Source of the DNA: a virus
Taxonomy: Duplodnaviria; Heunggongvirae; Uroviricota; Caudoviricetes
Strand: one strand, 5' to 3'
IMG/VR virus record: IMGVR_UViG_3300029073_000029
DNA: 6,136 bases
Numbering within the stretch: the stretch's first letter is position 1; every line of letters begins with the position of its first letter. The notes below the pieces were generated by a model. That model was not told the DNA's origin. It did no database searches and was given only the letters and a program-made list of their open reading frames with translations. A program made the position numbers and the translations under genes. Below are positions 1-5,853 of this stretch, in pieces.

Positions 1-22
1 CGAAGGTGAGTTGATGGCTCAT
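1..22 (-). CDS. 5' end of a minus-strand ORF (MSHQLTF...) that runs off the left edge; sits where P4 beta follows gop
   Basis: ATG at 22..20 (plus-strand cat), AGAGG about 6 nt upstream, frame open to position 1. It starts 41 nt after the TGA of the 63..1082 gene. Only 7 codons are visible, so identity is unknown. Confidence 0.3.
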
Positions 23-62
23 GATGTCCCTCTGGGATGCGCTCCGGATGAATATGATGATC

Positions 63-1082
63 TCATATCAGGAACTTGTTCGCACCTTCCCTAGCAGAAC
101 GGACATCGACTGGTGTAAGGAAGAATTTATTCTTCCATTTTTGATTTTTAAATCTTGAGGATAGCCTTGCTATTAAAGATGACTTTCCATTTCCTGAACC
201 GCCTATAAGTGATAGGACTCTACTTTGAGAGCTATTTCCTCTAACATTCTCAAGATAATCCCAAACTTCTTTCTGTATATATTCGCGACCAACAAAGTCT
301 TTCGGCTGACATGGCTTATAATCCATAAAATCGTCAGCAAGAATTATTTCACTGACAATTTCCCTTTCGTAATTTTCAGATAATTTTGAAGACGAAACAG
401 TTTGTTCCGGTTCAGATAATATATAAAAATCAGTTACTTCCAACCCTTCAAAAAGCCCTTGCTCCTTTATAATATCACTTATGCGACTGACACTTGGAAT
501 TTTACTATTTTTATTTATAGCGAACGGCACCACTCTTATAGGGCTACCATTTTCAACTTCTTGCAAAAGCCAAGTCATTTCTATTTCAGGATGAACTAAA
601 AGTGTTGCACTAGTATATTTTGCCGGAATGTCATCTGTTGGAATATCCTCAACCTTACCTGTTGCAAGTATAGATATAAGAATCTCTTTTTTATCAAAAA
701 AAGAATAATCTATACGCTCATCAAGTCTATAATCCTCAAGCGTTGACTGAGCATCTTTACCCAAATCAGAAATTGAAAAAAGTGCAATTTTTTTAACTCT
801 CAACCTAAATGCTTGAGAAAATGCCAAATCAACCACAGATGAATCAACTTTTTGCTGCATGAATTTACATTCTACATACAGCTTTTCATTTGATGGTGTA
901 TGAGTAGCCTGAATATCAATTTCCATGCCAGATTTTCTGACTTCCATACCATCAATTCTATACGATTGCCGGCGGAGTATATCAGCGCAAAAATTCTCGA
1001 AAAACTTCCCTCTCGAGGTATTGGAATAATTACTAGGTACACAAACTATCAAATCTTTATTCAGTGGTAACGGCCTGGCCAT
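63..1082 (-). CDS. AT-rich cargo protein, 339 aa: N-terminal Mrr-like PD-(D/E)xK nuclease motif plus C-terminal start of an AAA_16/STAND-type P-loop NTPase that appears truncated
   Basis: Complete ORF with AAGGAG about 8 nt upstream of the ATG at 1082. Seen: GKFFENFCADILRRQSY...GMEIDIQA...KLYVECKF (hD...ExK pattern typical of Mrr_cat restriction-endonuclease domains) and FVGREYIQ...RVLSLIGGSGNGKSSLIARL (Walker A, at about 203..180) followed by only about 38 residues before TGA at 65..63. Clearly AT-rich by eye compared with flanking DNA. Position corresponds to gop in P4 (inference). Confidence 0.8.
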   Translation of the reverse strand: MARPLPLNKDLIVCVPSNYSNTSRGKFFENFCADILRRQSYRIDGMEVRKSGMEIDIQATHTPSNEKLYVECKFMQQKVDSSVVDLAFSQAFRLRVKKIALFSISDLGKDAQSTLEDYRLDERIDYSFFDKKEILISILATGKVEDIPTDDIPAKYTSATLLVHPEIEMTWLLQEVENGSPIRVVPFAINKNSKIPSVSRISDIIKEQGLFEGLEVTDFYILSEPEQTVSSSKLSENYEREIVSEIILADDFMDYKPCQPKDFVGREYIQKEVWDYLENVRGNSSQSRVLSLIGGSGNGKSSLIARLSSRFKNQKWKNKFFLTPVDVRSAREGANKFLI

Positions 1083-2031: not shown

Positions 2032-2532
2032 TCATTCCAGACGCAGCGAATATGATTGTGTTTTTAACCGTACTGGCGGCAGTTCCTGTTTTTCATGCAG
2101 GCTTTCTGCAAGCTCGTCCGGCGTGACCGGGCGGACAATGAAGCGGTTGATGGTCTGAAGCGTTTTAAACACCAGACCACAGCCCGGATCCGTGCACACA
2201 TAAAAACGCTCGGTGACTTCCTGAGACAGACGCCGCGATGTTCTTGACAGCGCAAGGCCTTTACATCTCCGACAACAATATCCGGTAACAAGCATTCTTT
2301 TCGGGCGCTTCATGCTGCCGGAGGCTGACGTCAGTGAATCGCGGTATCTCTGTTTGCCTGAAATGTATTCCATTCCTGAATCTTTACAGTCAGAGAAAAA
2401 GCTTTCACTCGCTTCAAATGTCGCAGAGCAATAAATATTCCGGCACTGTGCAATCATTATCTTGGTGCCATCGTCCATGAAATGTGCGCGACGGGTGTGA
2501 GCAACATGTCCACACGACGGGCAGTAAATCAT
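2032..2532 (-). CDS. delta: Delta late-gene transcriptional activator, 166 aa, with two Ogr-type zinc fingers
   Basis: Two copies of the C-X2-C-X22-C-X4-C finger characteristic of the Ogr/Delta family: CPSC...(22)...CRNIYC and CRRC...(22)...CTDPGC. Start ATG overlaps the sid stop as ATGA (plus strand 2529..2532 tcat). Length matches the 166 aa I recall for P4 Delta. Confidence 0.9.
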   Translation of the reverse strand: MIYCPSCGHVAHTRRAHFMDDGTKIMIAQCRNIYCSATFEASESFFSDCKDSGMEYISGKQRYRDSLTSASGSMKRPKRMLVTGYCCRRCKGLALSRTSRRLSQEVTERFYVCTDPGCGLVFKTLQTINRFIVRPVTPDELAESLHEKQELPPVRLKTQSYSLRLE

Positions 2533-3263
2533 GACAGCAGTCCTCTGGCCTTAAGCTTTGCTCCCTGCTGGTCTATTTTGTCCTGCCACACCTTGCGCTG
2601 TGCCGGTGTGCCTGCCACCTCATAATCCATGTGCGGGAGTGTTGCCGCTGACAGTCCGGTCAGCCGGAGAACCGGCTCGCCGGTGAGGCTGATTTGCATC
2701 TGTTTTATTTTCTGTTCCAGCGATGATTTCACCTGCTGCATGACAGCCTTTTCCGGTGCGACGTAGCCCTGATGGCCGGTGGTGTTGGCGAGCGGATTTT
2801 CCTGTACCAGGATGCTCAGATGCATTGCCCGGACAAGCGCCTCACAGGTTTCATTCAGGGCGTGTTCCAGCTCATGCTCTGCATACAGACTCAGCAGGTG
2901 ATGATGTGCCTTCCGGTAGGCGGTGGCCGTGCTGTCACACGCCCCTTTCAGGCGTTCGCGTTCAAAATTCAGCACCACGGCCAGATTGTCATATTCCTGT
3001 ACCAGCTCCCGGCGTGCCACGCGCTCAATGTGGCGCTGTTTCAGCTCGTCGCTCAGGACACCACCGGCTGCACGAAAGGCCGTGCGCCAGTCGTCAGCGT
3101 CGTTTCCGTCGGCCTGCGCCAGCGCATTTTTTTCCTGCTCTGCCCGTTCAATGGCCGTGACGGTCTCATCCATCAGGCGGGCGTTCTCAAGATGGGCGGC
3201 TCTGGCCTTTTCCAGTTGTGCCAGTGCGGGTTTCAGATATTCAGGGATAGTGTGGTCAGACAT
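2529..3263 (-). CDS. sid: Sid-like external scaffold / capsid size determination protein, 244 aa
   Basis: The ORF-track start at 3281 is a GTG. The ATG at 3263 has AGGAG about 7 nt upstream and gives 244 aa, the length I recall for P4 Sid. Helix-prone composition. First gene of the sid-delta-psu order, downstream of TGT-N12-ACA sites. Confidence 0.8.
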   Translation of the reverse strand: MSDHTIPEYLKPALAQLEKARAAHLENARLMDETVTAIERAEQEKNALAQADGNDADDWRTAFRAAGGVLSDELKQRHIERVARRELVQEYDNLAVVLNFERERLKGACDSTATAYRKAHHHLLSLYAEHELEHALNETCEALVRAMHLSILVQENPLANTTGHQGYVAPEKAVMQQVKSSLEQKIKQMQISLTGEPVLRLTGLSAATLPHMDYEVAGTPAQRKVWQDKIDQQGAKLKARGLLS

Positions 3264-3297
3264 TTTCCGGCTCCTCGTCACTTCAGGTTAAGAAAAT

Positions 3298-3353
3298 TGT
3301 GACGTACACCGGACAGCAACACGACGCATTGCAGATGTGCCAGCCCTGACACA
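3298..3353 (-). promoter_or_regulatory. Psid-like late promoter with two TGT-N12-ACA activator sites
   Basis: TGT(3298..3300)-N12-ACA(3313..3315) and TGT(3336..3338)-N12-ACA(3351..3353). The distal site is centred about 55 bp and the proximal about 17 bp upstream of a transcription start assumed near 3290. Ogr/Delta-activated P2/P4 late promoters have this element centred near -55. Confidence 0.5.
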
Positions 3354-3408
3354 GGAGACTCATCCTCACACCGGCAAGCCAGGAAAAGGTCGCAGGAAAA
3401 ACCGGCTT

Positions 3409-3577
3409 ACTGTTTGTTTTTTTATATTTTACTGTTCACCTCTGTTCACCTTAATAAAAAAGATAAGTAATACAGTAAGTTAAAGGATGAACAATCGCAG
3501 TAATGACTGTTCACCGTCTGTTCACCACTGTTCACCCGCTCATGGACTTTTTGTGCTGTTTACTACTGTTTGTTTTT
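3409..3577. other. ori: Putative replication origin with alpha-type iterons
   Basis: Five perfect direct TGTTCACC octamers at 3433..3440, 3443..3450, 3508..3515, 3519..3526 and 3529..3536, spaced about 10-11 bp, separated by an AT-rich spacer and bracketed by a 13-bp direct repeat ACTGTTTGTTTTT (3409..3421 and 3565..3577). I recall TGTTCACC as the type I iteron bound by P4 alpha at ori and crr. Confidence 0.6.
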
Positions 3578-3640
3578 ATTAATTCGCCGGGAATGAATAA
3601 GAAGAAACGATTTGTATTTCACTATAAAAATTACAAATTG

Positions 3641-3670
3641 CTTTAAGTGGCTTTAAATGACTTTAAGTGG
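3641..3670. repeat. Three tandem 10-bp repeats CTTTAA(G/A)TG(G/A)
   Basis: ctttaagtgg / ctttaaatga / ctttaagtgg, head to tail with helical-turn periodicity, about 150 bp upstream of vis. Function not determined; candidate regulator-binding array. Confidence 0.6.
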
Positions 3671-3695
3671 AAATGAACAAAAAACACACAACCAT

Positions 3696-3713
3696 TGTAA
3701 GGCTGCCGGAACA
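3696..3713 (+). promoter_or_regulatory. Candidate activator site of a PLL-like late promoter driving vis
   Basis: TGT(3696..3698)-N12-ACA(3711..3713), centred about 110 bp upstream of the vis ATG, which would place a transcription start near 3755..3760. Confidence 0.4.
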
Positions 3714-3815
3714 AATCCCCCCTGTTGCGTCTGCTGAAAATATTCACAAAATAAAGCGCTACCCGAAGCCGGACGGACTTATCCGGTGCTGTATGGACAT
3801 TAACGAGGTAGCCCG

Positions 3816-4082
3816 ATGCAAGCTGTTTTTTCTTCCCCGTCTCCCGCCCCTGTGACGCCACTGATGCCGCTGCCGGACATCACACAGGAGCGTTTTTTAC
3901 GTCTTCCGGAAGTGATGCACCTGTGCGGCCTGTCACGCTCGACCATCTATGAACTCATCCGTAAGGGGGAATTTCCGCCGCAGGTGAGTCTTGGCGGTAA
4001 AAATGTGGCCTGGCTGCACTCTGAAGTCACCGCATGGATGGCCGGCCGCATTGCCGGACGCAAACGGGGGTACGACGCATGA
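3816..4082 (+). CDS. vis: AlpA/Vis-family DNA-binding regulator (excisionase-like helix-turn-helix), 88 aa
   Basis: [51 protein letters not shown] matches the AlpA-family pattern (LP.V....G.SRST.Y.....G.FP....LG.....W...EV..W). GAGG lies 7 nt upstream of the ATG at 3816. An alternative in-frame ATG at 3864 would give 72 aa. Confidence 0.85.
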
Positions 4083-4117
4083 TGATGCCTGTTCTGCAAA
4101 AAGTCCCTTTTTCTGGC

Positions 4118-4147
4118 TTGCCTTTTTCCGGCATTTGCGGATATAGT
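4118..4147 (+). promoter_or_regulatory. Candidate sigma70 promoter (PLE-like) upstream of the immunity-like leader
   Basis: TTGCCT (4118..4123), 18-nt spacer, TATAGT (4142..4147). Motif match only. Confidence 0.35.
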
Positions 4148-4154
4148 TTTTCCG

Positions 4155-4471
4155 CTGCCGCAAAATCGGCAGCCGGGCGTGAGAACCCGTGTAACTCGAA
4201 GGCGACATATGACGCGCCATGCGTCTTTTTTTGTGTCGCAATCAACGCCACAGAGCGCCAGATTATGGTGTGGCGTGTGGTTTGCCGTGCAGGTATGATC
4301 CTGTTCGCAATCGCATGTTATGCCACTGAGTCAATGGTAGCTCAGGCGGGGCAGCCTCCGGGCTGGCCGGTATTCTTCGAGGCCGGTATTCTCACCCCCG
4401 TCTGGGCTATCGCCATCGAGCGTGAGAACTCCGGCGATAGCAGTTATTTGCTACTCGAAGGAGGCTGCCTT
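4155..4471 (+). ncRNA. Untranslated leader with repeated boxes and complementary segments; candidate cI-type immunity RNA region
   Basis: GCGTGAGAAC occurs twice (4177..4186, 4420..4429), each followed by ACTCGAAGG (4194..4202, 4453..4461; the second abuts the RBS of the 65-aa ORF). Between them, CTTCGAGG (4375..4382) and TTCTCAC (4389..4395) are complementary to those boxes, within a 12-nt direct repeat GGCCGGTATTCT (4365..4376, 4381..4392). No convincing ORF with RBS. Boundaries are approximate. Confidence 0.35.
4211..4232 (+). terminator. Short GC hairpin followed by T7; candidate intrinsic terminator within the leader
   Basis: GACGC (4211..4215), 5-nt loop, GCGTC (4221..4225), then TTTTTTT (4226..4232). 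Confidence 0.4.
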
Positions 4472-4669
4472 ATGGCTACAACCCTTACCCCCTCACACCC
4501 TGAATTTGTCTTTGTGTTTGCGGCTGTCCGTCGCGCAGACCGTCATCCCCGTATCTGCATGCTTCGCACCGTCGCCGGTGATGAACGCAGCGCCCGCCGT
4601 TCCCTTGTCCGTGACTATGTGCTCTCCCTTGCTGCCCGTCTGCCGGTGGTGGAGGTGTCCCGTGCGTAA
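4472..4669 (+). CDS. Small protein, 65 aa, first ORF after the leader (position comparable to P4 kil)
   Basis: GAAGGAGG ends about 7 nt before the ATG at 4472. It is the 3' part of the 211-aa track ORF, whose upstream portion lacks an RBS and overlaps vis and the leader. Confidence 0.55.
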
Positions 4670-4949
4670 TAAAAAAGCCCCTCAGACCGTCTCAGCACGT
4701 CATGACGCCCGTGAACACCTCAGCATTGAGGCTTACCATAAGCTCAACCGCGCCAGCGCCGTATCCCAGTTTGTTGGGGGTGATTTGATTCACCGTGAAC
4801 TCTCCGGCCTGCATCAGCTCTACATTCCGCATATTTTCAGCTACCTGAATGAAGATATTGATTTTGTGCTGAATGAGCTGAAAGCCAAAGGCCTGTGCCG
4901 CGATTTTCTCGCCCAGCAGAAAGACCGGGGAGACAGGACGCATGTTTGA
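4662..4949 (+). CDS. Small protein, 95 aa, GTG start (size compatible with P4 epsilon, not verified)
   Basis: GGAGG (4651..4655) sits 6 nt upstream of the GTG at 4662. It overlaps the stop of the 65-aa ORF by 8 nt and its own TGA (4947..4949) overlaps the next ATG. Confidence 0.6.
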
Positions 4950-5397
4950 TTTTCCCCAGCCCGGTGAGATTTACCGTTCTGCCGGTTTTCCCGATGTGGC
5001 CGTGGTCGGCATTCTGGAAGACGGTATTCCGTGGGAAATGCCGTACCGCTGCCCGGACATTGTCTGGAACCCGTACCGCCGTAAATTCAGTATCCTTGTG
5101 CGTATCCTCGATGACGGGCGCACCACAGACATCCCGCTGGGGCGTTTTCTGCGGGAATTTACCTGTGACCGTCCTGACCTGTTTAAACGCAGCCCCGTAA
5201 ACCGGCATGCGGTACTGAAAGAAATGGCCGGAGACCCGGAATTACAGAAATGGCGGGAGAAATATCTGGATATTTACCCGCAGGACACTGTTCCGGCCAG
5301 CCGGGCGGCACCGGTGGCGCGGGAATGGCGGGAAATTCCCCGCACGGAGCCTGACCCGGAAATCACCCCGGATAACAGTTACCGCAATTATCTGTAA
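4942..5397 (+). CDS. Hypothetical protein, 151 aa (same length as P4 orf151)
   Basis: Complete ORF, start overlaps the upstream stop (translational coupling), purine-rich stretch upstream. Length and position within the left operon match my recollection of P4 orf151. Confidence 0.75.
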   Translation: MFDFPQPGEIYRSAGFPDVAVVGILEDGIPWEMPYRCPDIVWNPYRRKFSILVRILDDGRTTDIPLGRFLREFTCDRPDLFKRSPVNRHAVLKEMAGDPELQKWREKYLDIYPQDTVPASRAAPVAREWREIPRTEPDPEITPDNSYRNYL

Positions 5398-5470: not shown

Positions 5471-5536
5471 ATGCCTTATCAGTTAATGCAACCGGCACGG
5501 AATGCAGTCATCTGTCACAGGGAGGAAAACAAATGA
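5471..5536 (+). CDS. Possible 21-codon leader micro-ORF ([21 protein letters not shown]) coupled to the next gene
   Basis: AGGAGA (5458..5463) lies 7 nt upstream of the ATG at 5471. Its stop TGA (5534..5536) overlaps the ATG (5533..5535) of the 106-aa ORF as ATGA. Too short to judge by composition. Confidence 0.25.
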
Positions 5537-5853
5537 AAACACCCTTACCGCCCGTCTTACGCGCTGCCCTTTACCGTCGCGCTGTCGCCTGTGCCTGGCT
5601 GACCGTGTGCGAACGTCAGCACCGCTACCCGCATCTCACCCTTGAGTCACTGGAGGCGGCCATCGCCGCTGAGCTGGAAGGCTTTTATCTGCGCCAGCAC
5701 GGTGAGGAAAAAGGGCGTCAGATAGCCTGTGCCCTGCTGGAAGATTTAATGGAATCCGGCCCCCTGAAGGCCGCGCCGTCGCTGTCCTTTCTCGGGCTGG
5801 TTGTGATGGATGAACTCTGTGCCCGTCACATAAAAGCGCCGGTACTGCACTGA
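5533..5853 (+). CDS. Hypothetical protein, 106 aa, immediately upstream of the primase
   Basis: GGGAGG ends 8 nt before the ATG. Complete ORF ending 14 nt before the alpha start. Whether this or the 95-aa ORF is the epsilon (anti-repressor) equivalent cannot be decided from sequence alone. Confidence 0.75.

What the first reader, a model, noticed from the sequence alone, without database searches (positions are those of the whole stretch)
4118..4471. Immunity-like leader: duplicated boxes and a complementary middle segment
Seen: about 390 nt without a convincing ORF, a candidate promoter, and the paired boxes GCGTGAGAAC and ACTCGAAGG occurring twice (4177..4202 and 4420..4461). A central segment (4365..4396) is complementary to both boxes, and a small hairpin plus T7 sits at 4211..4232. 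The second box pair abuts the RBS of the first ORF. Established: P4 immunity works through a small RNA in the leader whose seqB pairs with flanking seqA and seqC to cause premature termination. Inference: these are the equivalents. The individual complementarities I can see are only 7-8 bp, so the assignment is tentative.
Basis: partly seen in the sequence, partly recalled or inferred. Interest (0 to 1): 0.55.

Follow-up and report, generated by a model that had tools for sequence, protein, structure and literature searches.

The report
P4-type antisense RNA immunity leader
This is the well-known immunity switch of satellite phage P4, in which a small processed RNA pairs with two matching sites in its own transcript to stop lytic genes; here it sits in an E. 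coli P4-like prophage that carries a different "address" in one of the two pairing boxes.

Summary
The window is a P4-like satellite prophage: 95.3% identical to phage P4 over 3300-4700, and 4118-4471 is 100% identical to a stretch of an E. coli O91 chromosome. The finding is the P4 immunity region. It comprises promoter PLE (4118-4147), seqA (4177-4202), intrinsic terminator t1 (4211-4232), the CI RNA (Rfam C4, 4330-4417, 74 bits), seqB (4374-4395), and seqC (4420-4461) overlapping the kil ribosome-binding site. Rfam also matches isrK (4154-4231) and c4-a1b1 (4141-4193), both above gathering score.

Compared with P4, the second box is changed in all three copies in a compensatory way: TTCACAG/CTGTGAA in P4, CTCGAAG/CTTCGAG here. 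Across 39 distinct related leaders, both boxes covary in seqA, seqB and seqC with 98-100% of cells paired. There are four box-1 types and at least six box-2 types, and they reassort.

One point is wrong. The region is not free of ORFs: it lies inside the 196-codon eta reading frame (Phage_ASH), as in P4.

Verdict: real, correctly interpreted and already known. The likely heteroimmune allele and the modular two-box diversity are of modest extra interest.

The parts
3816..4082 (+). vis / orf88 (AlpA-type excisionase-regulator). Its stop TGA (4080-4082) overlaps the eta ATG (4079-4081).
   Evidence: 88-aa ORF. Pfam Phage_AlpA 74 bits. P4 ORF88 is annotated at the aligned position.
4079..4669 (+). 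eta reading frame (196 codons), spanning the whole 'leader'. kil is its nested 3' part.
   Evidence: Pfam Phage_ASH 78.4 bits. PGAP annotates the identical 591-nt ORF as 'host cell division inhibitor Icd-like protein'. The frame is open across the leader in 61 of 63 distinct relatives. Roles of eta and kil as summarised in PMC10111431.
4118..4147 (+). Promoter PLE: -35 TTGCCT (4118-4123), 18-nt spacer, -10 TATAGT (4142-4147).
   Evidence: The only promoter-like site in 3700-4700. Identical in P4. The -10 is annotated at the aligned position in X02534.
4154..4231 (+). Short PLE-to-t1 transcript (seqA RNA, IsrK homologue): hairpin 4154-4173, hairpin 4174-4189 with box 1 in its loop, box 2, then the t1 hairpin and U-run.
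   Evidence: Rfam isrK 70.7 bits (gathering 50) and c4-a1b1 50.4 bits (gathering 46.7). Fold.
4177..4186 (+). seqA box 1, GCGTGAGAAC. Core GUGAGAA (4179-4185) pairs with seqB 4389-4395.
   Evidence: Five of 7 pairs show changes on both sides among relatives, 99.6% of cells paired.
4194..4202 (+). seqA box 2, ACTCGAAGG. CUCGAAGG pairs with seqB 4374-4381.
   Evidence: Six of 8 pairs show changes on both sides, 97.8% paired. Differs from P4 (TTCACAGG) in a compensated way.
4211..4232 (+). Intrinsic terminator t1: GACGCG-CCA-UGCGUC followed by U7.
   Evidence: Stem invariant in 39 relatives (helix 5). Identified as P4 t1 from position (between PLE and cI) and from my recollection of Briani et al. 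2000.
4330..4417 (+). cI gene: CI RNA of the C4 antisense RNA family. Predicted mature RNA about 4336-4414: 16-bp closing stem, hairpin 1 (4352-4365), hairpin 2 (4366-4387), 3' GCC(A).
   Evidence: Rfam RF01695 74.3 bits, E 1.2e-13. MFE -48.2 kcal/mol, z = -4.7. Closing stem 100% paired, with 3 pairs changed on both sides.
4374..4395 (+). seqB: UCUUCGAG (4374-4381, loop of hairpin 2, pairs with box 2) and UUCUCAC (4389-4395, single-stranded joiner, pairs with box 1).
4406..4441 (+). Alternative hairpin in the precursor: arms 4406-4414 and 4433-4441, with seqC box 1 in the loop. It competes with the 3' strand of the CI closing stem.
   Evidence: 9-nt perfect inverted repeat (I5). Pairing kept by compensatory changes in L013, L016 and L042. 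Function inferred only.
4420..4429 (+). seqC box 1, GCGTGAGAAC.
   Evidence: Five of 7 pairs changed on both sides, 100% paired.
4453..4463 (+). seqC box 2, ACTCGAAGG, overlapping the kil Shine-Dalgarno GGAGG (4459-4463).
   Evidence: Five of 7 pairs changed on both sides, 99.6% paired.
4472..4669 (+). kil (65 codons), nested in frame in eta. First gene translated from PLE transcripts.
   Evidence: ATG 8 nt after GGAGG. A 64-65-codon ORF is conserved in all relatives. PMC10111431.
4662..4949 (+). epsilon (helper derepression protein), the first downstream lytic-operon gene kept off by the immunity.
   Evidence: Pfam Derepression 170 bits. P4 annotation.

Best explanation
The region is the immunity determinant of a P4-like satellite prophage, homologous part for part to that of phage P4.

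**Shown here**
- Homology to P4.
- The RNA folds.
- The three-way complementarity and its covariation.
- The overlap of seqC with the kil RBS.
- The open eta frame across the leader.

**Taken from published P4 work, not tested on this allele**
1. The constitutive promoter PLE (4118-4147), which lies inside the eta reading frame, transcribes the leader.
2. The primary transcript is processed to a stable CI RNA of about 79 nt (about 4336-4414). In P4 this is done by RNase P at the 5' end.
3. CI RNA displays seqB in a hairpin loop (UCUUCGAG) and in an adjacent single-stranded stretch (UUCUCAC).
4. seqB pairs with seqA (4177-4202) upstream. This raises termination at the intrinsic terminator t1 (4211-4232) and so autoregulates CI.
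5. seqB also pairs with seqC (4420-4461) downstream. seqC overlaps the kil Shine-Dalgarno sequence. Pairing blocks kil translation and causes premature transcription termination before epsilon, orf151, orf106 and alpha, so the prophage's replication and lytic genes stay off.
6. When the upstream late promoter is activated, ribosomes coupled from vis translate full-length eta across the leader and override termination.

**Inferred**
The window shares box 1 with P4, but box 2 is changed in all three sites. Its immunity specificity therefore probably differs from P4's.
For: - **Homology.** 95.3% identity to P4 over 3300-4700, with the same gene order: psu, delta, sid, ori repeats, vis, leader, epsilon, orf151, orf106, alpha.
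- **Rfam.** C4 74.3 bits, isrK 70.7 bits and c4-a1b1 50.4 bits, all above gathering score.
- **Sequence elements.** Boxes and complements are unique in the window. Promoter and terminator were found by scan.
- **CI fold.** -48.2 kcal/mol, z = -4.7. The box complements sit in a loop and in a single-stranded joiner.
- **Compensatory change against P4** in seqA, seqB and seqC.
- **Duplex energies.** Cognate duplexes are 3 to 9 kcal/mol more stable than cross duplexes with P4.
- **Covariation in 39 distinct leaders drawn from 73 related leader sequences.** seqA-seqB: 11 of 15 pairs changed on both sides. seqB-seqC: 10 of 14. Cells paired 97.8-100%, against 33-46% for the whole scored structure when partners are slid by 1 to 3 columns.
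- **Literature.** PMC4825925 and PMC10111431 summarise the P4 mechanism. PMC5499578 cites RNase P processing of CI RNA.
Against: - No expression data for this element. Processing, stability and termination are inferred from P4.
- Nearest-neighbour cofolding does not reproduce the loop-loop seqA-seqB contact. It predicts only a small effect of blocking seqA on the t1 hairpin (probability 0.81-0.87 rising to 0.93-0.96). The way CI enhances t1 termination therefore gets no support from my computations.
- The window shares box 1 with P4, so partial cross-immunity cannot be excluded.
- The prophage carries an IS insertion in its cargo gene, so the element may not be fully active. All core ORFs in the window are nevertheless intact.
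Confidence: 0.95

Rival explanations
1. The RNA acts essentially as a translational repressor of kil, like C4 RNA on icd in P1/P7. Any termination is only a secondary, Rho-dependent polarity effect. seqA and t1 play no direct part in immunity.
For: - seqC box 2 overlaps the SD GGAGG.
- seqC is cognate in all 39 distinct leaders, whereas seqA is non-cognate in a few, such as L070 and L027.
- PGAP names the ORF Icd-like.
- The RNA belongs to the same Rfam family as P1 C4.
Against: - This refines the main explanation rather than replacing it.
- By my recollection of Briani et al. 2000, P4 has Rho-independent, CI-dependent termination at t1 and t4.
- seqA still covaries with seqB in nearly all relatives.
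- The t1 hairpin and U7 run are invariant, which argues that they are used.
Confidence: 0.15
2. The repeated boxes are by-products of protein coding in eta (repeated peptide motifs such as RENP/RENS) or are DNA sites for a protein. They are not RNA pairing partners.
For: - The whole segment is inside a conserved open frame with a Pfam Phage_ASH match.
- Both copies of box 1 encode '..RENx'.
Against: - The middle segment is the reverse complement of the boxes, which peptide repetition does not explain.
- Changes in the boxes are matched by complementary changes in seqB in 4 box-1 types and at least 6 box-2 types.
- Structure-aware Rfam models score well above threshold.
Confidence: 0.02
3. The sequence is a decaying relic in a defective prophage. 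It is recognisable as P4 immunity but no longer functional.
For: - An IS5-family element interrupts the cargo gene at the left end of the window.
- Many P4-like elements in genomes are cryptic.
Against: - Promoter, t1, CI stem and all three box sets are intact and mutually cognate.
- The exact 354-nt segment occurs at 99% identity or more in 86 complete E. coli genomes.
- All core ORFs in the window are full length.
Confidence: 0.04

Closest known systems
Phage P4 immunity region (PLE, seqA, t1, cI/seqB, seqC, kil/eta)
   Same: 96% mean column identity over 4083-4700. The promoter, t1, CI RNA scaffold and box 1 are the same, as are the position of seqC on the kil RBS, the eta frame over the leader and the flanking genes.
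   Different: - Box 2 differs in all three copies. P4 has UUCACAGG in seqA and seqC with CCUGUGAA in seqB. The window has CUCGAAGG with (U)CUUCGAG.
- There is a 9-nt in-frame deletion at about 4295.
- A +1/-1 indel pair lies between seqC box 1 and the kil ATG.
- Cross duplexes are 3 to 9 kcal/mol weaker than cognate ones.
P4-like retronphage phiR73 immunity (Sabbattini et al. 1996, cited in PMC7567579)
   Same: A P4-like element described as having its own immunity specificity determinants in the same cI/seqA/seqC system. This is the same kind of allelic variation as seen here.
   Different: I could not obtain the phiR73 sequence. It is absent from the phage collection searched, and the paper is not held. 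Whether the window's allele is the phiR73 allele is therefore untested. The window carries no retron; its cargo is an Mrr/nSTAND1 NTPase gene.
C4 antisense RNA / a1b1-a2b2 / icd-ant (immI) of phages P1 and P7
   Same: - Same Rfam RNA family (RF01695) and same target motif family (RF03163).
- The RNA is cut out of the transcript it regulates.
- There are two target sites, the downstream one on the RBS of an Icd-like ORF.
- CI RNA and C4 RNA are both cited as RNase P substrates (PMC5499578).
   Different: - The genomic context is a satellite, not P1.
- The downstream genes are epsilon and the primase alpha, not ant.
- From my recollection of the P4 literature, P4 uses CI-dependent intrinsic-type terminators in addition to translational repression with polarity.
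IsrK sRNA of Salmonella Gifsy-1 (RF01394)
   Same: The PLE-to-t1 RNA (4154-4231) matches the isrK model end to end at 70.7 bits. [quoted passage not shown]
   Different: IsrK was shown to act in trans on its own long isoform to allow translation of orf45/anrP. No such role is known or tested for the P4-type short transcript.

Membership tests
P4 immunity system (CI RNA with seqA/seqB/seqC) | Located in a P4-type left operon, between vis and epsilon/alpha, downstream of a constitutive promoter (PLE) | tested here: met
   Gene order and 95.3% identity to P4. TTGCCT-18-TATAGT at 4118-4147, identical to P4.
P4 immunity system (CI RNA with seqA/seqB/seqC) | Small structured RNA of the C4/CI family encoded in the leader | tested here: met
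   RF01695 74.3 bits against gathering 45, full-length match 4330-4417. Stable fold, z = -4.7.
P4 immunity system (CI RNA with seqA/seqB/seqC) | seqB complementary to one site upstream (seqA) and one downstream (seqC) on the same transcript | tested here: met
   Covariation in 39 distinct leaders.
P4 immunity system (CI RNA with seqA/seqB/seqC) | Intrinsic terminator t1 between seqA and cI | tested here: met
   Hairpin plus U7 at 4211-4232. Invariant stem in relatives.
P4 immunity system (CI RNA with seqA/seqB/seqC) | seqC overlaps the translation start region of kil, which is nested in eta | tested here: met
   Box 2 at 4453-4461 overlaps GGAGG at 4459-4463; ATG at 4472. The eta frame 4079-4669 is open and coupled to the vis stop.
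P4 immunity system (CI RNA with seqA/seqB/seqC) | CI RNA is processed from the PLE transcript and accumulates as a stable RNA of about 79 nt | not testable with these tools
   Needs northern blot or RNA-seq. Only the RNase P-type hairpin with a 3' GCCA is visible.
P4 immunity system (CI RNA with seqA/seqB/seqC) | CI-dependent premature termination, and immunity to superinfection | not testable with these tools
   Thermodynamic modelling of the t1 hairpin with and without seqA blocked was uninformative.
P1/P7 immI (C4 RNA, icd, ant) | C4-family RNA with a1b1 and a2b2 targets, a2b2 on the RBS of an icd-like ORF | tested here: met
   RF01695 and RF03163 hits. The ORF is annotated Icd-like by PGAP.
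P1/P7 immI (C4 RNA, icd, ant) | Antirepressor gene ant downstream of icd | tested here: not met
   Downstream genes are epsilon (Pfam Derepression), orf151, DUF5375 and primase. No Ant domain was found. The region works like immI but is not a member of it.
IsrK sRNA (RF01394) | Sequence and structure match to the family model | tested here: met
   70.7 bits against gathering 50, model positions 1-77 of 77.
IsrK sRNA (RF01394) | Trans-activation of translation of its own read-through mRNA | not tested
Mentioned only as a lead (PMC4825925).

The most novel reading that the evidence does not exclude
The two pairing boxes work as an independently reassorting two-part address. That would give many mutually heteroimmune groups of P4-like satellites in Enterobacteria.

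The evidence so far:
- At least 4 box-1 types and at least 6 box-2 types occur, and about 13 combinations were seen among 75 seqB sequences (73 related IMG/VR loci, P4 and the window).
- The window's allele has the P4 box 1 and a non-P4 box 2, so it would be one such group.
- seqA can be non-cognate, as in L070 and L027, but seqC never is. This would mark seqC as the specificity-determining target.

I found no systematic description of this combinatorial diversity in the searchable literature. A change in a single box may or may not be enough for heteroimmunity; that is untested.
Probability: 0.45. Interest if true: 0.4.

Novelty: already known. Interest (0 to 1): 0.22.

Why it matters
It confirms that a reader working from sequence alone correctly recognised a classic antisense-RNA immunity switch. 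For annotation, RefSeq records label this locus only as an 'Icd-like protein' gene. The CI RNA, its targets and t1 are not annotated there, although the leader is present in about a fifth of complete E. coli genomes (1048 of 5426). The compensated box changes give a ready-made natural mutant series. It could be used to test how few base pairs decide satellite-satellite immunity, and whether the two boxes act independently.

Tried and rejected
1. **Original P4 papers.** I tried to read Sabbattini 1995 (PMC176756), Forti 1999 (PMC94026) and Lindqvist 1993 (PMC372931). None is held. Exact published coordinates of seqA, seqB, seqC, t4 and timm could not be transferred. Statements about t1, t4 and timm rest on secondary summaries and on my memory.
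2. **phiR73 allele.** I tried to find out whether the window's allele is that of phiR73.
   - phiR73 is not in the phage collection.
   - A search of related loci for retron reverse transcriptases gave L012 (RT-TIR type XII) and L013 (RT type II-A).
   - The closest E. coli retron of that type lies in a differently organised P4-like element.
   - Left unresolved.
3. **Thermodynamic test of how CI binding to seqA promotes t1 termination.** The t1 hairpin already has probability 0.81-0.87 without blocking and 0.93-0.96 with it. Cofolding cannot model the loop-loop contact. Uninformative.
4. **Boxes as peptide repeats in eta or as protein-binding DNA sites.** Considered and rejected, because the middle copy is inverted and covaries.
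5. **Chance.** Two 'X ... rc(X) ... X' triads occur in 0.2% of shuffles.

Full report
**What the window is**

The 6136-nt window is part of a P4-like satellite prophage of E. coli.
- Region 3300-4700 is 95.3% identical to phage P4 (X51522/NC_001609) over its full length.
- The gene order matches the P4 annotation: psu (1386-1958, minus), delta (2032-2532, minus), sid (2529-3281, minus), ori repeats, vis/orf88 (3816-4082), the region in question, epsilon (4662-4949), orf151 (4942-5397), orf106/DUF5375 (5533-5853) and the start of the alpha primase (5868 onward).
- The finding's segment 4118-4471 is 100% identical to a stretch of the E. coli O91 RM7190 chromosome, in a prophage next to tRNA-Leu.
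- It is at least 99% identical in 86 complete E. coli genomes, and recognisably present in 1048 of 5426.

**Check of the observation**

- GCGTGAGAAC occurs only at 4177 and 4420.
- ACTCGAAGG occurs only at 4194 and 4453.
- The complements TTCTCAC (4389) and CTTCGAG (4375) each occur once. Both lie in the central segment, in the inverse order expected for antiparallel pairing.
- The consensus scan finds exactly one promoter-like site in 3700-4700, TTGCCT-18 nt-TATAGT at 4118-4147. It finds one terminator-like site, GACGCGCCATGCGTC followed by T7 at 4211-4232.
- Box 2 of the second pair overlaps GGAGG (4459-4463), 8 nt before the ATG at 4472.
- In 5000 dinucleotide-preserving shuffles of 4083-4480, two separate 'X ... 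reverse complement of X ... X' triads of 7 nt arose 10 times.

One statement is wrong. The region is not free of ORFs. It lies inside an open frame of 196 codons (4079-4669) whose ATG overlaps the vis stop codon (ATGA). This frame matches Pfam Phage_ASH at 78 bits. RefSeq annotates it as an 'Icd-like' protein.

**Identity of the parts**

Rfam covariance models match three parts, all above their gathering scores:

| Rfam family | Window coordinates | Bits | Gathering score |
|---|---|---|---|
| C4 antisense RNA | 4330-4417 | 74.3 | 45 |
| isrK | 4154-4231 | 70.7 | 50 |
| c4-a1b1 (targets of C4 RNA) | 4141-4193 | 50.4 | 46.7 |

The predicted CI RNA (4336-4414) folds into a 16-bp closing stem with two hairpins (-48.2 kcal/mol, z = -4.7).
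- The complement of box 2 (UCUUCGAG, 4374-4381) sits in the loop of the second hairpin.
- The complement of box 1 (UUCUCAC, 4389-4395) sits in the single-stranded joiner after that hairpin.
- Upstream, box 1 of seqA lies in the 8-nt loop of a small hairpin (4174-4189).
- Box 2 of seqA lies just before the t1 hairpin.

The pairwise alignment with P4 puts all of these on the P4 leader. The -10 hexamer and the dyad and direct repeats annotated in the old P4 record X02534 fall on the same positions.

**Evidence that the pairing is functional**

The window and P4 share box 1, but box 2 differs in all three copies, and the changes keep the pairing:

| | seqA and seqC | seqB |
|---|---|---|
| P4 | TTCACAGG | CCTGTGAA |
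| Window | CTCGAAGG | (T)CTTCGAG |

Cognate seqB-seqA and seqB-seqC duplexes are -32 to -37 kcal/mol. Cross combinations between the window and P4 are -24 to -32 kcal/mol.

A pattern fixed on CI hairpin 1, with the loop left free, found 73 related loci in IMG/VR. Their seqB regions show four box-1 types (complements of GTGAGAA, GTGGAAA, GTAGGAA and TTTGCAG). They show at least six box-2 types, in many combinations. In nearly every locus, seqA and seqC carry the matching sequences.

I counted pairs on an alignment of the 39 distinct leaders:

| Pairing | Box | Pairs changed on both sides | Cells paired |
|---|---|---|---|
| seqA-seqB | 1 | 5 of 7 | 99.6% |
| seqA-seqB | 2 | 6 of 8 | 97.8% |
| seqB-seqC | 2 | 5 of 7 | 99.6% |
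| seqB-seqC | 1 | 5 of 7 | 100% |

- When partners are slid by 1 to 3 columns, pairing over the whole scored structure falls to 33-46%.
- No shuffle of 500 reached the observed covariation score.
- The CI closing stem is 100% paired, with three pairs changed on both sides.
- The t1 stem is invariant.
- These counts are of sequences, not independent events. Even so, several distinct box types cannot be explained by shared ancestry alone.

**How it most likely works**

The mechanism is taken from P4 and was not tested on this allele. Secondary sources describe it (PMC4825925; PMC10111431; PMC5499578).
- In the lysogen, transcription from the constitutive promoter, which lies inside eta, terminates early.
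- CI RNA is produced by processing of this untranslated transcript. It is cited as an RNase P substrate.
- CI RNA pairs with seqA and seqC to cause termination.
- Kil, the truncated form of Eta, is translated only on read-through.
- Full-length Eta is translated only from the upstream late promoter, coupled to the alpA homologue (vis). Its translation suppresses termination.

From my own recollection of Briani et al. 2000:
- t1 is the intrinsic terminator between PLE and cI.
- t1 needs CI RNA and seqA, and serves CI autoregulation.
- A second, atypical terminator (t4) and a Rho-dependent site (timm) lie downstream of cI.

The window shows every sequence requirement for this scheme. The eta frame is open across the leader in 61 of 63 distinct relatives. 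It stays open in the window despite a 9-nt indel and a +1/-1 indel pair relative to P4. The segment is therefore both coding and regulatory RNA.

My attempt to model the effect of CI on t1 thermodynamically gave no useful signal.

**Comparison with known systems and novelty**

This is a member of the P4 immunity system by every feature that can be tested from sequence.
- It works like the P1/P7 C4-icd-ant module and shares the RNA family, but it lacks ant.
- The short PLE-to-t1 RNA is a homologue of Salmonella IsrK.
- Heteroimmune P4-like alleles have been reported since the phiR73 work (Sabbattini et al. 1996, cited).
- I could not obtain the phiR73 sequence, so I cannot say whether this allele is that one.
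- The exact 41-nt seqB allele of the window occurs in 88 complete E. coli genomes. The P4 allele occurs in 206.

The finding is therefore real, correctly interpreted and already known. The free reassortment of the two boxes, and the fact that only seqA is ever non-cognate, are the only aspects that might go beyond the literature.

Noticed in passing
window 1-104: The first ~100 nt are the end of an IS5-family element. The reverse complement of 1-23 reads ATGAGCCATCAACTCACCTTCG, which I recognise from memory as an IS5 transposase start. The element abuts CTAG at 101-104. This part alone hits thousands of places in E. coli genomes, whereas 91-1400 matches at 100% in genomes that lack the IS.
   Followed up: partly
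window 63-1082 (minus strand): The cargo gene beside psu is low in G+C. It encodes an Mrr_cat restriction-endonuclease domain followed by a P-loop (nSTAND1/AAA_16-like) and is cut short by the IS. Uninterrupted copies are annotated 'nSTAND1 domain-containing NTPase / restriction endonuclease'. This is probably an anti-phage gene in the known P4 hotspot. PADLOC gave only a weak DndF hit.
   Followed up: partly
E. coli strain 4/4, NZ_CP023826.1 2956333-2960652 (hits H48 and H71): The same cargo gene (99.9% identity) sits about 3 kb from a P4-type seqB allele, not the window's allele. Immunity allele and cargo therefore reassort between otherwise similar prophages.
   Followed up: no
L070 3707-4062 (minus); L027 8585-8940: These are leaders whose seqA is non-cognate. 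L070 has P4-type box 2 in seqA but the window-type box 2 in seqB and seqC. L027 has seqA differing in both boxes. Among 39 distinct leaders, seqC box 1 always matches seqB and seqC box 2 matches except in the two degenerate leaders described in the L026/L036 item. This suggests that seqA pairing is dispensable.
   Followed up: partly
window 4406-4414 with 4433-4441: A perfect 9-bp hairpin in the precursor uses the 3' strand of the CI closing stem and carries seqC box 1 in its loop. Its pairing is kept by compensatory changes in the three divergent leaders L013, L016 and L042. It could be part of the atypical terminator downstream of cI. This is untested.
   Followed up: partly
window 4350-4359 with 4460-4469: GGCAGCCTCC (hairpin 1 of CI) is perfectly complementary to GGAGGCTGCC (the kil SD and spacer) (I3). 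This extends the possible seqB-seqC contact, or allows in-cis sequestration of the RBS. Covariation could not be assessed because my search pattern fixed hairpin 1.
   Followed up: no
window ~4295, 4441 and 4470 versus P4: Relative to P4 there is a 9-nt in-frame deletion. There is also a +1/-1 indel pair that shifts the eta frame for about 28 nt between seqC box 1 and the kil ATG and then restores it. The frame is open in 61 of 63 distinct relatives.
   Followed up: yes
L026 6908-7263; L036 6818-7173: These two leaders have seqB loop ATCCTATGACG. Their seqA and seqC box 2 do not match it well, and L036 has an interrupted eta frame. They look like decaying immunity regions.
   Followed up: no
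L012 9444-11078; L013 876-1805: Two of the related P4-like loci carry retron-type reverse transcriptases as cargo. L012 has an RT-TIR type XII (638 bits) and L013 an RT type II-A (402 bits).
   Followed up: partly
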